This document shows positions 1 through 7,369 of a stretch of 7,369 nucleotides of DNA, one piece after another. The notes beneath the pieces were generated by a model that was not told where the DNA came from, did not search any database, and worked only from the letters and a program-made list of their open reading frames with translations. Position numbers and translations under genes: made by a program. The first letter of the stretch is position 1, and each line of letters begins with the position of its first letter. The stretch is from the IMG/VR virus record IMGVR_UViG_2654587728_000001; one strand, written 5' to 3'. Origin of the DNA: a virus (taxonomy: Monodnaviria; Loebvirae; Hofneiviricota; Faserviricetes; Tubulavirales; Inoviridae).

Positions 1-154
1 ATGAACACGCGGCATTTAACCATCGTAAATGGTGTGGGTATGAACAAAGTAACCGACAAACATAACGTCATGCAAGAAGAAGATAGAGGGATAGGTAAGT
101 GTATGATTGATCGTAGTCTGTGGCTGGTTATGAACTAAATGAACGGCGGACTAA

Positions 155-182
155 ATTTAACATAATATACATTATGCGCACT
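155..182 (-). other. dif: dif-like XerC/XerD site-specific recombination site (probable prophage-chromosome attachment junction)
   Basis: Plus strand reads ATTTAACATAATATACATTATGCGCACT. Its reverse complement, AGTGCGCATAA-TGTATA-TTATGTTAAAT, matches the E. coli dif core as I recall it (GGTGCGCATAA-TGTATA-TTATGTTAAAT) at 27 of 28 positions. The single mismatch is the outermost base of the XerC arm, on the phage side (position 182). It lies about 260 bp beyond the 3' end of the secretin gene. Confidence 0.75.
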
Positions 183-425
183 GTTATCAGGACTGATGAA
201 AACCGAAGGCCAGTCATCACCAGAATTGCTGTAACCCATCAATTTCATCAACTGGCCACATCAATGCATGGACGACTCACGCCTTGCGTCGTTCGTCTCG
301 ATAGCTGCCCTTTAAAAGCGGCCTGGCAGGAAGCGCGTTGCGCTGTCTCCTGCTGCTCTGTAATTTCTCCCTGGCTTCGGCGGTCAGGCAGCTGCATCAC
401 ATGAAACATCATCATGCCGCCTTAC

Positions 426-441
426 ATGCCGCGTTGCGGCA

Positions 442-442
<1 letters not shown>
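426..442 (-). other. Perfect 7-bp stem-loop (ATGCCGC-GTT-GCGGCAT) overlapping the secretin stop codon; not followed by a U-run
   Basis: Inverted repeat seen directly. A longer imperfect repeat (ATCATGCCGC at 411..420 against GCGGCATCAT at 436..445) overlaps it. No T-tract on the minus strand, so it is not a canonical intrinsic terminator. Confidence 0.35.
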
Positions 443-2756
<2,314 letters not shown>

Positions 2757-2767
2757 AAATCACCCTC

Positions 2768-3058
<291 letters not shown>

Positions 3059-3072
3059 TCACCACCTGATTA

Positions 3073-4542
<1,470 letters not shown>

Positions 4543-4546
4543 TTCA

Positions 4547-4717
4547 TCACCAGTAAAAACTAAATGGTTTTACAATTCGACGGAAATCCTGATCGGCTTT
4601 TTCAAGGATAACTGAAACAACATATTCTTCAATGGTTGCATTTTTATTGTAAATAATTCTTTCTATCTGCTCGATAGTGTATTCCGGCAATTTAACTTTA
4701 AATTCTTGAGTAGACAT
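4547..4717 (-). CDS. Hypothetical 56-aa hydrophilic protein between the gVIII terminator and gIII
   Basis: ATG at 4717..4715 preceded by GTGAGG RBS. Own translation: MSTQEFKVKLPEYTIEQIERIIYNKNATIEEYVVSVILEKADQDFRRIVKPFSFYW. Its TGA stop sits 2 nt before the gIII ATG. No hydrophobic segment, so it is not a coat protein. Not in the supplied ORF track (too short). Confidence 0.5.
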   Translation of the reverse strand: MSTQEFKVKLPEYTIEQIERIIYNKNATIEEYVVSVILEKADQDFRRIVKPFSFYW

Positions 4718-4809
4718 AAAACCTCACAAATTAGATTTAAACCCAATGACGCAACATAACCCACAAAGGGAACCAAACATCATAAAAATAAAATCAAACA
4801 TAAATATCC

Positions 4810-4834
4810 AAAAAAAGGGCGGAATATCCGCCCT
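4810..4834 (-). terminator. Rho-independent terminator immediately downstream of the major coat protein gene
   Basis: On the minus strand: GGGCGG-atatt-CCGCCC stem-loop followed by 7 T, starting about 18 nt after the pVIII stop. A strong terminator after gVIII is characteristic of Ff phages. Confidence 0.75.
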
Positions 4835-4851
4835 TCCTCATAAAAAACAAC

Positions 4852-5100
4852 TCAGATACTTCTGATGGCTCCCCATACTTTACGAACGCCAGCAAAAGTC
4901 AGATAAACTGTAACTCCTGCAACACCGATAGAAAGAATAACAGCAGAAACAGAAGACATATCAATGCTGTTAGTCAATGATGAAAAATCGACTGTACCAG
5001 CAAAAGACGGAGATACAGCAAGAGCAGAAGCAGCGGAAAAAGATAAAGCTGCAACTTTCTTATCAACACCCTTAAAAAAATTGGTCATTTTTGCAAACAT
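4852..5100 (-). CDS. gVIII: Major coat protein pVIII-like precursor
   Basis: 82-aa product MFAKMTNFFKGVDKKVAALSFSAASALAVSPSFA / GTVDFSSLTNSIDMSSVSAVILSIGVAGVTVYLTFAGVRKVWGAIRSI: signal peptide, acidic N-terminus, hydrophobic core and basic C-terminus. ATG at 5100 is preceded by AAGAAGG RBS. The ORF track's longer 102-aa version begins at a TTG and overlaps the upstream gene. Confidence 0.82.
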   Translation of the reverse strand: MFAKMTNFFKGVDKKVAALSFSAASALAVSPSFAGTVDFSSLTNSIDMSSVSAVILSIGVAGVTVYLTFAGVRKVWGAIRSI

Positions 5101-5102
5101 AA

Positions 5103-5276
5103 TTAAAGCCTTCTTATTAAACTCCAAATTGTGGAAATAATCATGCCAAGAAAAAAACAAAATACTGGCAGTGAAAATCCCGTTAAAAACGCCGAGGAAT
5201 AAATCCCCGACACATCAGGTATCCCCACGCAAATAGCATTAATTTGCGTGGAAACTGAATCCGAATTAACAGACAT
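5103..5276 (-). CDS. Small hydrophobic protein, candidate minor coat protein (gVII/gIX-like)
   Basis: Own translation: MSVNSDSVSTQINAICVGIPDVSGIYSSAFLTGFSLPVFCFFLGMIISTIWSLIRRL (57 aa). Hydrophobic C-terminal half. Lies between the gV-position gene and gVIII, where gVII/gIX sit in Ff. Its stop is 2 nt before the pVIII ATG. Not in the supplied ORF track. Confidence 0.5.
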   Translation of the reverse strand: MSVNSDSVSTQINAICVGIPDVSGIYSSAFLTGFSLPVFCFFLGMIISTIWSLIRRL

Positions 5277-5280
5277 AAAA

Positions 5281-7156
<1,876 letters not shown>

Positions 7157-7369
7157 ATGAAAAAAGAAACAAAGCGCGGAGACACAACCGTAAGGATTAA
7201 CGAAAACAGAAAACTGGAGCTAAAACGAAGAGTGCTGGAAATCGGTAATAAAACAGGTGAGCTACTAAAACCATCAGAGATAGTAAACCACTTAATAGAC
7301 AACTACTTAGATGATGCGGTGAAAGATCTAATAAGCAAAGAAGAACTTAAGAAAAAAAAGGCAATGTGA
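7157..7369 (+). CDS. Small basic putative transcriptional regulator (possible ribbon-helix-helix fold), divergent from the Rep operon
   Basis: 70-aa ORF MKKETKRGDTTVRINENRKLELKRRVLEIGNKTGELLKPSEIVNHLIDNYLDD... The pattern is compatible with a beta-strand followed by two helices. AGAGGT RBS 7 nt upstream. Placement mirrors rstR relative to rstA in CTX-type phages. Confidence 0.45.
   Translation: MKKETKRGDTTVRINENRKLELKRRVLEIGNKTGELLKPSEIVNHLIDNYLDDAVKDLISKEELKKKKAM

What the first reader, a model, noticed from the sequence alone, without database searches (positions are those of the whole stretch)
155..182. dif-like site with one substitution at the phage-proximal edge of the XerC arm
The XerD arm and central hexamer match my recollection of E. 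coli dif exactly. The only difference is the outermost XerC-arm base, which faces the prophage. That is what a hybrid attL/attR site looks like when the XerC-side arm comes from the phage attP. It also places the host in Enterobacteriaceae.
Basis: partly seen in the sequence, partly recalled or inferred. Interest (0 to 1): 0.65.

Follow-up and report, generated by a model that had tools for sequence, protein, structure and literature searches.

The report
Rebuilt dif site beside filamentous prophage
This is the E. coli chromosome-dimer resolution site (dif), rebuilt when a cholera-phage-like filamentous prophage used the host XerC/XerD enzymes to insert there; the single odd base really is the phage's contribution, but this is a well-known kind of event.

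Summary
Window 155..182 (minus strand) reads AGTGCGCATAA-TGTATA-TTATGTTAAAT, 27/28 identical to canonical E. coli dif. The only difference is position 1 of the XerC arm (window base 182), which abuts a filamentous prophage.

The window is an exact substring of two draft E. coli contigs. There the prophage is 7,772 bp, and its far end (outside the window, next to hipA) keeps the host G-type XerC arm fused to phage sequence. That host arm is G in 8 of 8 far-end junctions read.

The phage encodes no integrase. Its attachment region is CTX-type: two inverted dif-like sites (11-nt and 5-nt spacers) fold into a forked ssDNA hairpin (-42.9 kcal/mol, z = -11). The hairpin recurs in more than 30 inovirus contigs with compensatory changes, including at arm position 1.

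One correction is needed. The A variant is not diagnostic on its own: 410 of 5,426 complete E. coli genomes carry this exact 28-mer, some at empty sites (e.g. BL21(DE3)). Only the far-end junction shows hybrid origin here.

Verdict: a real feature and a new member of a known kind (CTX-type Xer-exploiting element, alongside CUS-1Φ/YpfΦ). Modest interest.

The parts
1..154 (.). Host (E. coli) chromosomal flank on the XerD side of dif. Bases 1-8 overlap the 5' end of a '-' strand site-specific integrase gene that starts a three-gene recombinase array.
   Evidence: Window 1..181/182 is 100% identical to several E. coli chromosomes. Annotation of L002 and L003 shows the integrase genes, as do the gene calls in L008.
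155..165 (-). XerD-binding arm, host-derived (TTATGTTAAAT on the - strand).
   Evidence: Identical to canonical dif. Identical at empty sites with the same flank (L003).
166..171 (-). Central hexamer TGTATA, host-derived. The predicted XerC cleavage and strand-exchange point is between 171 and 172.
   Evidence: Identical to dif. The phage attP1 has TGTGAC... here, so positions 166-168 must be host. The cleavage position is inferred from the Xer mechanism described in PMC4246890.
172..182 (-). XerC-binding arm AGTGCGCATAA, phage-derived. Base 182 (A on the - strand) is the only marker that distinguishes it from the host arm GGTGCGCATAA.
   Evidence: The host G arm is found at the far-end junction in the same genome (L008/L009). 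The phage junction carries A. Position 1 covaries with its attP2 partner.
169..181 (.). 13-bp stretch identical between host dif and phage attP1 (GTGCGCATAA+TGT). The crossover cannot be mapped more finely than this from sequence.
   Evidence: Comparison of the near-end, inter-copy, far-end and empty sites. Megablast matches to tandem junctions start at window 169.
183..7369 (-). Body of a 7,772-bp filamentous (inovirus) prophage. The window lacks its last ~575 bp, which hold the attP hairpin and the far-end junction.
   Evidence: Found in 46 of 5,426 E. coli genomes. Unit length comes from L008. Gene content.
442..1701 (-). pIV-type secretin (419 aa).
   Evidence: Pfam Secretin 1.9e-25 and Secretin_N. 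PHROG 1012 'assembly (protein IV of M13)' 1.8e-116.
1698..2756 (-). Zot/pI-type assembly ATPase (352 aa).
   Evidence: Pfam Zot 1.3e-22.
2768..3055 (-). DUF2523 minor virion protein (95 aa).
   Evidence: Pfam DUF2523 2.9e-9. PHROG 974 4.3e-19.
3073..4542 (-). Probable pIII-like adsorption protein (489 aa). It is variable: 543 aa in the L001 copies.
   Evidence: Position in the gene order. PHROG 7187 and 3942 hit only the C-terminal part. Length difference. The function is inferred.
4547..4717 (-). 56-aa ORF in the position of a coat protein.
   Evidence: Called as a gene in L008-L012. No family hit. The role is inferred from position.
4852..5100 (-). 82-aa virion structural protein.
   Evidence: PHROG 2186 'virion structural protein' 2.9e-14.
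5281..5616 (-). 111-aa protein of unknown function, in the RstB/ssDNA-binding position.
   Evidence: PHROG 14411 1e-47, function unknown. The role is inferred from position only.
5626..6822 (-). Rolling-circle replication initiator, RstA-like (398 aa; an upstream ATG at 6852 would give 408 aa).
   Evidence: Pfam Rep_trans 1.9e-21. PHROG 453 5.6e-107. About 33% identity to CTXphi RstA over 92% of its length.
6822..7019 (-). 65-aa ORF upstream of rep, function unknown.
   Evidence: PHROG 3104 8.4e-25.
7157..7369 (+). Divergently transcribed 70-aa ORF in the position of the CTXphi repressor rstR. The function is untested.
   Evidence: PHROG 2503 1.5e-27, function unknown. Gene call in L008. The role is inferred from position.

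Best explanation
Window 155..182 is the functional dif site of an E. coli lysogen, rebuilt by integration of a CTX-type filamentous phage. The proposed steps are as follows.

1. The phage's packaged (+) single strand, which corresponds to the window's minus strand, folds its ~100-nt attachment region into a forked hairpin. In the hairpin, two inverted dif-like half-sites pair: attP1 (AGTGCGCATAA / 11-nt spacer / TTATGTTGAAA) and attP2 (5-nt spacer). This creates a XerC-arm duplex and a XerD-arm duplex around a bulged spacer.
2. Host XerC and XerD bind this hairpin and the chromosomal dif.
3. XerC cuts both partners between the XerC arm and the spacer and swaps one pair of strands. The swap is stabilised by the shared TGT next to the XerC arm.
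4. XerD cannot complete the reaction, because the XerD-side spacer bases do not match. Replication therefore resolves the junction.

The result is what is observed. On the hipA side, the host XerC arm (G-type) is joined to phage spacer, XerD-like arm and hairpin. On the other side, the phage XerC arm (A-type) is joined to the host central hexamer and XerD arm, and this is the site in the window. That rebuilt site remains a proper 11-6-11 dif. It should serve chromosome dimer resolution and act as the target for further integrations, which would produce the tandem arrays seen in other strains.

What is shown: the junction anatomy, the absence of an integrase, the hairpin and its conservation and covariation. 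What is inferred: XerC-only catalysis, ssDNA as the substrate, irreversibility, and activity of the rebuilt site.
For: Site identity: 27/28 to dif, with no chance hits. The reference sequence is from PMC2731167.

Reciprocal hybrid junctions in the window's own genome and in E. coli E700025, which has two tandem copies. The host arm is G in 8 of 8 far-end junctions read.

No recombinase among the prophage ORFs by Pfam or PHROGs, and no gene is called in the 665 bp between the last phage ORF and hipA.

Inverted repeats I1-I3 lie around the phage junction. The ssDNA fold is -42.9 kcal/mol, z = -11.1, and 0 of 200 shuffles fold as well. The same fold appears in a related E. coli phage (z = -10.8) and in a Photorhabdus relative with 46% Rep identity (z = -7.7).

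35 inovirus-sized viral contigs carry the same arm/11-nt spacer/arm geometry, and all but one fold alike. On 20 distinct hairpins, 95.7% of cells are paired against 27-53% for slid registers. Nine pairs change on both sides, against 1.5 in shuffles and 0-2 when slid. The pair 'arm position 1: attP2 partner' is G:C in 9, A:T in 5 and G:T in 4.

Rep is RstA-like. The class criteria in PMC4246890 match: two inverted sites, an over-long attP1 spacer, a 5-7-nt attP2 spacer, and homology only next to the XerC arm.

The A-type 28-mer is the only dif-like site at the orthologous locus in BL21(DE3), C4 and an O169:H41 strain, so it is presumably a working dif.
Against: No experiment supports this. Catalysis by XerC alone, use of ssDNA and irreversibility are carried over from CTXphi. 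The orientation and junction sequences would be the same if double-stranded attP1 recombined with dif (the VGJ-type route).

The hairpin is more compact than in CTXphi: about 100 nt with an 11-nt loop, against about 150 nt with 90 bp between the sites. Part of its stem (AAAAGGCCGCTGCG...CGCAGCGGCCTTTTT) also looks like an intrinsic terminator, which could contribute to its conservation.

Some rows of the alignment are host-phage junctions, so their column 1 is a host base. That weakens the position-1 covariation count.

I could not verify that the lysogen has no other dif elsewhere on its chromosome.
Confidence: 0.8

Rival explanations
1. VGJ-type route. The double-stranded replicative form recombines with dif through attP1 alone. 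XerC exchanges one strand pair using the shared TGT, replication resolves the junction, and the prophage could later excise by the reverse reaction.
For: The junction products and orientation are the same as those observed. Homology limited to the XerC side is also the VGJ rule (PMC4246890). Tandem arrays and unit-length circular-looking contigs exist, and these could reflect excision.
Against: attP1 has an 11-bp spacer. The review states that the 12-bp spacer of CTXphi attP1 makes it unsuitable for double-stranded Xer recombination. Re-parsing attP1 with a 6-bp spacer leaves a XerD arm (ACGCGTTATGT) that matches only 5 of 11 positions (my count). This model does not explain a conserved, covarying inverted second site. 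VGJ-type phages carry a single dif-like site.
Confidence: 0.1
2. The A at position 1 is simply the host's own dif allele (a natural polymorphism), so the site is an ordinary dif that happens to lie next to a prophage and is not a hybrid.
For: The exact A-type 28-mer occurs in 410 of 5,426 complete E. coli genomes, but only 16 have this phage junction. Empty A-type sites sit next to hipA in BL21(DE3), C4 and O169:H41. Strains sharing the window's left flank show A-type host arms (L002; the L003 hipA-side site).
Against: In the window's own genome the far-end junction carries the G-type arm with the native hipA-side flank (L008/L009), so the pre-integration dif was G-type. The same holds in all 8 far-end junctions read. 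The phage's own junction carries A, paired to T in attP2.
Confidence: 0.04
3. The site is a decayed or non-functional dif relic at an old prophage boundary, and dimer resolution is handled by another site.
For: No direct evidence. The whole chromosome of the source strain could not be scanned.
Against: The site keeps a perfect 11-6-11 architecture with a dif-identical central region and XerD arm. Its only change is at the least conserved, outermost part of the XerC box (PMC2731167). The same 28-mer is the sole dif-like site at the orthologous locus in prophage-free strains. Within about 20 kb of the lysogen locus there is no other site with 3 or fewer mismatches. The far-end site has an 11-bp spacer and a poor XerD-side match.
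Confidence: 0.03

Closest known systems
CTXphi of Vibrio cholerae (CTX-type IMEX; Val et al. 2005, as summarised in PMC4246890)
   Same: No integrase, and integration at dif. Two inverted dif-like sites fold in the (+) ssDNA. attP1 has an over-long spacer (12 bp in CTXphi, 11 here) and attP2 a short one (5-7 in CTXphi, 5 here). Homology to dif lies only next to the XerC arm. Both have reciprocal hybrid junctions with a rebuilt dif at the distal end, tandem arrays, and an RstA-type Rep (33% identity).
   Different: The host is E. coli and the target is its single dif next to hipA. The attachment region is more compact (about 100 nt with an 11-nt loop, against about 150 nt with a 90-bp separation). 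The phage encodes its own pIV secretin, which from general knowledge CTXphi lacks, using the host EpsD instead. No toxin genes were seen. None of the mechanism has been tested for this phage.
CUS-1phi (E. coli O18:K1:H7) and YpfPhi (Yersinia pestis)
   Same: Enterobacterial filamentous prophages integrated at the same 28-bp dif. They are listed as CTX-type members (PMC4246890). [quoted passage not shown] All of these are seen here.
   Different: This is probably a different phage. A Rep-based scan of species-representative genomes returned only Photorhabdus (46% identity) and not Y. pestis. The phage occurs in only 46 of 5,426 complete E. coli genomes, many of them ETEC or diarrhoeal isolates. 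The genome is 7.77 kb, against 8.7 kb for YpfPhi. No reference CUS-1 or YpfPhi sequence was available to me, so the distance is not measured.
VGJphi-type and TLCphi-type IMEXs
   Same: They exploit XerCD at dif and produce hybrid flanking sites.
   Different: VGJ-type elements have a single double-stranded attP with a normal-length spacer and integrate reversibly. TLC-type elements have a dif-like central region, a degenerate XerD arm, XerD-first catalysis and a dedicated activation factor. Neither anatomy fits.
UPphi phages of Enterobacterales (PMC7307601)
   Same: E. coli inoviruses integrated as tandem repeats at dif. Only the first ~15 bases of dif are repeated at inter-copy junctions.
   Different: UPphi phages are relatives of I2-2/IKe (Lineavirus). 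The present phage has an RstA-like Rep and different structural genes.

Membership tests
dif (XerC/XerD chromosome dimer resolution site) | 28-bp site made of an 11-bp XerC arm, a 6-bp central region and an 11-bp XerD arm, matching the species consensus | tested here: met
   27/28 to GGTGCGCATAATGTATATTATGTTAAAT, with 0 hits in 200 shuffles. Reference sequence from PMC2731167.
dif (XerC/XerD chromosome dimer resolution site) | Occupies the orthologous terminus locus of the species | tested here: met
   The left flank is 100% identical to the XerD-side dif flank of E. coli strains. In L008 the prophage is bounded on the other side by the native XerC-side flank and hipA/hipB, as at empty dif sites. 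The GC-skew switch cannot be judged from 7 kb.
dif (XerC/XerD chromosome dimer resolution site) | Supports FtsK-dependent XerCD recombination and dimer resolution | not testable with these tools
   Indirect evidence only. The identical 28-mer is the only dif-like site at the locus in prophage-free BL21(DE3), C4 and O169:H41.
CTX-type IMEX | No element-encoded integrase or recombinase | tested here: met
   Pfam and PHROGs scans of all prophage ORFs find secretin, Zot, DUF2523, structural proteins and Rep_trans only. No gene is called in the remaining 665 bp.
CTX-type IMEX | Two dif-like sites in inverted orientation that pair in the (+) ssDNA to form a forked hairpin presenting XerC and XerD arms | tested here: met
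   Inverted repeats I1-I3. Fold of -42.9 kcal/mol, z = -11.1. Conserved, with 9 double-sided compensatory pairs in 20 distinct homologues.
CTX-type IMEX | attP1 spacer too long for double-stranded Xer recombination, and a short attP2 spacer | tested here: met
   attP1 has an 11-nt spacer (TGTGACACGCG) and attP2 a 5-nt spacer. CTXphi has 12 and 5-7 (PMC4246890).
CTX-type IMEX | Spacer homology with dif restricted to the bases next to the XerC arm | tested here: met
   TGT is shared, then GAC... in the phage against ATA in dif.
CTX-type IMEX | Reciprocal hybrid junctions: host XerC arm plus phage spacer at one end, and phage XerC arm plus host central region and XerD arm at the other | tested here: met
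   This is distinguishable only because host (G) and phage (A) differ at arm position 1.
CTX-type IMEX | ssDNA substrate, XerC-only catalysis, resolution by replication, irreversibility | not testable with these tools
   Carried over from CTXphi (PMC4246890).
VGJ-type IMEX | A single double-stranded attP of about 29 bp with a near-normal spacer, giving reversible integration | tested here: not met
   The spacer is 11 bp, and a second inverted site is present and covarying.
TLC-type IMEX | Central region almost identical to dif with a degenerate XerD arm, plus a Xer activation factor | tested here: not met
   The central region matches dif at only 3 of 6 positions. No such factor was detected by Pfam or PHROGs, although the small ORFs are uncharacterised.
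CUS-1phi / YpfPhi lineage | High nucleotide or protein identity to the CUS-1/YpfPhi genome | tested here: inconclusive
   No reference sequence was accessible: the phage collection gave no nucleotide match and the CUS-1 paper is not held. The Rep scan of species representatives did not return Y. pestis, which argues against close kinship.

The most novel reading that the evidence does not exclude
Traffic of Xer-exploiting elements continually rewrites the outermost base of the E. coli dif XerC arm. Every CTX-type integration replaces the host arm in the working dif with the element's arm. Elements that carry an arm plus a copy of the native flank (as in strain XYEH3934) could then fix either allele when they are lost by homologous deletion. 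On this reading, the A/G dimorphism of dif seen in about 7.6% of complete genomes is at least partly a footprint of past phage or IMEX occupancy rather than neutral point mutation. The covariation of arm position 1 with its attP2 partner would then reflect phage lineages tracking, or driving, host alleles.
Probability: 0.15. Interest if true: 0.45.

Novelty: new member of a known kind. Interest (0 to 1): 0.27.

Why it matters
For annotation, the finding gives an exact prophage boundary. The phage/host crossover lies within window 169-181, with predicted cleavage at 171/172, so the XerC arm belongs to the phage and the prophage is 7,772 bp.

It adds a well-documented E. coli example of CTX-type, integrase-free lysogeny. 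The folded attachment site is supported by covariation, is more compact than the CTXphi site, and is shared as a mosaic module by many otherwise unrelated enterobacterial inoviruses.

Because this phage differs from a G-type host at one arm base, natural lysogens act as a built-in record of which arm came from which partner. This confirms the XerC-side crossover without any experiment.

Practically, it warns that the A-type dif is a common E. coli allele and cannot on its own be read as a prophage scar.

Tried and rejected
1. I suspected that the window's host lineage was natively A-type, which would make the 'substitution' illusory. Strains with the same left flank show A-type host arms (L002, L003). 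This was rejected when the window's own contigs showed a G arm at the far end.

2. I considered that empty A-type sites are simple excision scars of this phage. By reasoning, this is unlikely: recombination between the two flanking sites within their 13-bp identity, or XerC-mediated excision, would restore G. Producing A next to the native flank needs a crossover where there is no homology.

3. I at first provisionally classed the phage as VGJ-type, on the shared GTGCGCATAA+TGT (note). I revised this after finding the inverted second site and the 11-nt spacer.

4. A nucleotide search of deposited phage genomes found nothing. A protein search found only relatives below 60% identity, mostly Vibrio CTX-like phages.

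5. The original CUS-1 paper (PMC135385) is not held, so published CUS-1 junction sequences could not be compared.

6. Literature searches for the A-type 28-mer and for an E24377A/ETEC filamentous prophage at dif gave nothing specific.

7. The genome contigs Rep scan returned only two Photorhabdus loci, so the species range beyond E. coli remains poorly sampled.

8. Two other dif-arm-like sites in L013 (7901, 18259) fold weakly or differently (z = -2.6 and -3.9) and were not used.

Full report
**1. The observation**

Window 155..182 reads ATTTAACATAATATACATTATGCGCACT. Its reverse complement is AGTGCGCATAA-TGTATA-TTATGTTAAAT. Searching the window with the canonical dif 28-mer, allowing up to three mismatches, returns only this site, with one mismatch. 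None of 200 dinucleotide-preserving shuffles gives a hit.

The reference sequence does not rest on memory. The table in PMC2731167 lists GGTGCGCATAATGTATATTATGTTAAAT for E. coli K12 and for Y. pestis CO92, and I read the same 28-mer at an unoccupied site in E. coli XYEH3934 (L003). The only difference is position 1 of the XerC arm, which is window base 182. The XerD arm (155-165) and central hexamer (166-171) are exact.

**2. What surrounds the site**

Everything from 183 to the end of the window is a filamentous prophage with its genes on the minus strand:
- a pIV-type secretin (442-1701)
- a Zot/pI ATPase (1698-2756)
- a DUF2523 minor virion protein (2768-3055)
- a probable adsorption protein (3073-4542)
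- small structural ORFs
- an RstA-like rolling-circle initiator (5626-6822), about 33% identical to CTXphi RstA
- a divergent 70-aa ORF at the window's end

No integrase or other recombinase is present.

Window 1..154 is host DNA. It is 100% identical to the XerD-side flank of dif in several E. coli chromosomes. The 28-mer alone would not exclude Yersinia.

**3. The other end, and the test of hybridity**

The far end of the prophage is not in the window. A look-up of the window's 489-aa protein found two draft contigs (L008, L009) that contain the whole window as an exact substring. In window orientation, the two ends in those contigs are:
- Near end (the finding): host flank - ATTTAACATAA TATACA TTATGCGCAC**T** - GTTATCAGG... 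(phage)
- Far end, 7,772 bp away: ...CCTTTTCAACATAACGCGTGTCACA TTATGCGCAC**C** - AACATAAACCAAGG... - hipA

The far end therefore keeps the host's G-type XerC arm and native flank, fused to phage sequence. The near end has the phage's A-type arm fused to the host central region and XerD arm.

The same arrangement is seen in E. coli E700025, which carries two tandem copies. There the inter-copy junction (equivalent to attP) has the A arm followed by phage sequence on both sides. Six more far-end junctions from other strains all carry G, making 8 of 8.

**4. A necessary correction**

The A variant is not in itself a mark of a prophage junction. The exact A-type 28-mer occurs in 410 of 5,426 complete E. 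coli genomes, but only 16 of those have this phage next to it. In BL21(DE3), strain C4 and an O169:H41 strain it lies about 77 bp from hipA with nothing inserted. The G-type site with native flank is found in 4,389 genomes.

For a while I suspected that the window's host lineage was natively A-type, because two strains with the identical left flank show A-type host arms. The G arm at the far end of L008/L009 rejects that for this genome. The conclusion of hybrid origin stands, but it rests on the far-end junction and not on the substitution.

**5. How the phage integrates**

The inter-copy junction, read on the phage coding strand, is:

AAC-AGTGCGCATAA-TG-TGACAC-GCG-TTATGTTGAAAAGGCCGCTGCG-[11-nt loop]-CGCAGCGGCCTTTTTATACATAA-CGC-CA-TTGTGCGCACT-GTT

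It contains two dif-like sites in inverted orientation (repeats I1-I3). attP1 has an 11-nt spacer and attP2 a 5-nt spacer. As single-stranded DNA the region folds into a forked hairpin with a XerC-arm duplex, a 6-nt bulge and a XerD-arm duplex. The fold is -42.9 kcal/mol, z = -11.1, and none of 200 shuffles folds as well.

This matches the published definition of the CTX class (PMC4246890):
- two inverted sites, with attP1 spacer 12 bp and attP2 spacer 5-7 bp
- neither site usable as duplex DNA
- specificity set by the bases next to the XerC arm
- XerC-only strand exchange on folded (+) ssDNA, completed by replication
- irreversible integration, with CUS-1phi and YpfPhi listed as members

Here the spacer shares only TGT with dif, on the XerC side.

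**6. Comparative support for the hairpin**

- A related but distinct E. coli phage (strain 503440) folds identically (z = -10.8). It differs at positions that change on both strands: GCG/CGC becomes ACG/CGT, and the outer AAC/GTT becomes GCC/GGC.
- A Photorhabdus temperata relative with only 46% Rep identity has the same layout (z = -7.7). Photorhabdus cinerea shows a rebuilt dif-like site downstream of its prophage.
- A pattern scan of viral contigs for 'arm / 11-nt spacer / arm' found 35 inovirus-sized contigs, and all but one fold the same way.
- On 20 distinct hairpins, 95.7% of pair cells are standard pairs, against 27-53% when the register is slid. Nine pairs show changes on both sides, against 1.5 in shuffles and 0-2 when slid.
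- Arm position 1 and its attP2 partner covary: G:C in 9 sequences, A:T in 5, G:T in 4. The A in this phage's arm is therefore a paired, structural feature of its attachment site.

Two caveats apply. Some rows are host-phage junctions, so their first column is a host base. Part of the stem also resembles an intrinsic terminator.

**7. Mechanistic reading and what remains inferred**

Shown here:
- reciprocal hybrid junctions
- absence of an integrase
- the conserved, covarying forked hairpin
- homology with dif limited to the XerC side
- an RstA-like Rep
- tandem arrays in some strains

Inferred from the CTXphi paradigm:
- (+) ssDNA is the substrate
- only XerC catalyses
- replication resolves the junction
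- integration is irreversible
- a single-copy prophage, as in L008, may be unable to produce phage

The rebuilt site is inferred to be the lysogen's working dif, for three reasons. It keeps a perfect 11-6-11 layout. The far-end site has an 11-bp spacer. The same 28-mer is the sole dif-like site at the locus in prophage-free strains. The main rival is a VGJ-type double-strand reaction through attP1, which gives the same products. It is disfavoured by the long spacer and by the conserved second site (confidence about 0.1).

**8. Comparison with what is known**

Filamentous phages integrating at dif in E. coli and Yersinia (CUS-1, YpfPhi) are long known. The YpfPhi review describes a dif rebuilt at the 3' end of the prophage, inverted XerC/XerD sites, tandem repeats and imperfect inter-copy sites (PMC4266046). 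The present phage behaves the same way but appears to be a different virus:
- No nucleotide match in deposited phages.
- No Y. pestis hit in a Rep-based scan.
- Present in only 46 of 5,426 complete E. coli genomes, many from diarrhoeal or ETEC-type isolates.
- No specific paper in the searchable library.

I could not obtain CUS-1 or YpfPhi sequences, so the distance is unmeasured. I class the finding as a new member of a known kind.

**9. Verdict**

The finding is real and correctly interpreted, with one correction about how diagnostic the A base is. It is useful for exact boundary annotation and as a clean natural record of a XerC-side crossover, but it would not surprise a specialist. Interest 0.27. 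The most novel reading not excluded is that IMEX traffic drives the A/G dimorphism of E. coli dif (probability about 0.15).

Noticed in passing
window 182; L004 9001-9028 (BL21(DE3)), L006, L007: E. coli dif is dimorphic at XerC-arm position 1. The exact A-type 28-mer is present in 410 of 5,426 complete genomes, including empty sites directly beside hipA in BL21(DE3), C4 and an O169:H41 strain. The adjacent flank also varies (AACAT, AATAT or AGTAT), in different combinations with A or G. I found no paper that mentions the A-type sequence.
   Followed up: partly
L003 4155-7650 (E. coli XYEH3934): A ~3.4-kb non-phage element lies between two sites. The first is a full G-type dif followed by 26 bp that copy the native hipA-side flank. 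The second is an attP-like site (ATTTAACATGT-TCAACACA-TTATGCGCACT) with an A-type arm plus the real flank. It looks like a G-armed Xer-exploiting element in an A-type host. Its ~38-bp imperfect direct repeats could swap the dif allele when the element is lost.
   Followed up: partly
L002 4183-7279 (E. coli LD93-1): An A-type dif plus the first bases of the native flank (AATAT) is followed by an ISNCY transposase, an ECs_2282-family zinc-binding protein and hypothetical genes before hipA. No second XerC-arm site was found within the locus, so how this block was inserted is unclear.
   Followed up: no
L015-L049 (viral contigs); L051 (E. coli D8, 10001-10101): The same forked-hairpin attachment module is carried by inoviruses whose proteins show little or no similarity to this phage. 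One example is a D8 prophage with a II/X-family Rep at the same hipA junction. The lysogeny module appears to move between phage backbones. 143 complete E. coli genomes have a far-end junction of this hairpin family.
   Followed up: partly
L050 3001-3071 (plasmid pAPEC2908) and ~475 plasmid places: A 72-nt part of the hairpin (XerD-arm stem, loop and attP2) occurs at about 93% identity on many large E. coli plasmids. In pAPEC2908 it lies between an IS200C fragment and an STM4504-family gene next to a decayed ISNCY transposase. It could be a relic of an IMEX or a plasmid Xer site.
   Followed up: no
window 1-8 and leftwards; L008 14520-19554, L002 1-4008: The host flank on the XerD side of dif in this lineage begins a tandem array of three large genes: a 466/471-aa integrase, a 415-aa PF00589 integrase and a 788-aa protein. 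This resembles a recombinase-in-trio element abutting dif. Other E. coli lineages have LysR/aldo-keto reductase genes or fimbrial genes in that position.
   Followed up: no
window 3073-4542 vs L001 5504-7135: The probable adsorption (pIII-like) protein is 489 aa in the window but 543 aa in the otherwise ~99.5% identical copies in E700025. Only its C-terminal part matches known phage families. This may be a host-range variable region.
   Followed up: no
L010 (7,785-bp Logan contig), L011, L012: Read-assembly contigs of about one phage unit length, or spanning the phage-phage junction, exist in public sequencing runs. This is consistent with tandem prophages or circular replicative forms in those samples.
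   Followed up: no
L044 4420-4540: One viral contig has the attP1 site and the first half of the stem but then diverges. It lacks attP2 and does not fold (-11.8 kcal/mol). It may be a rearranged or truncated attachment region.
   Followed up: no
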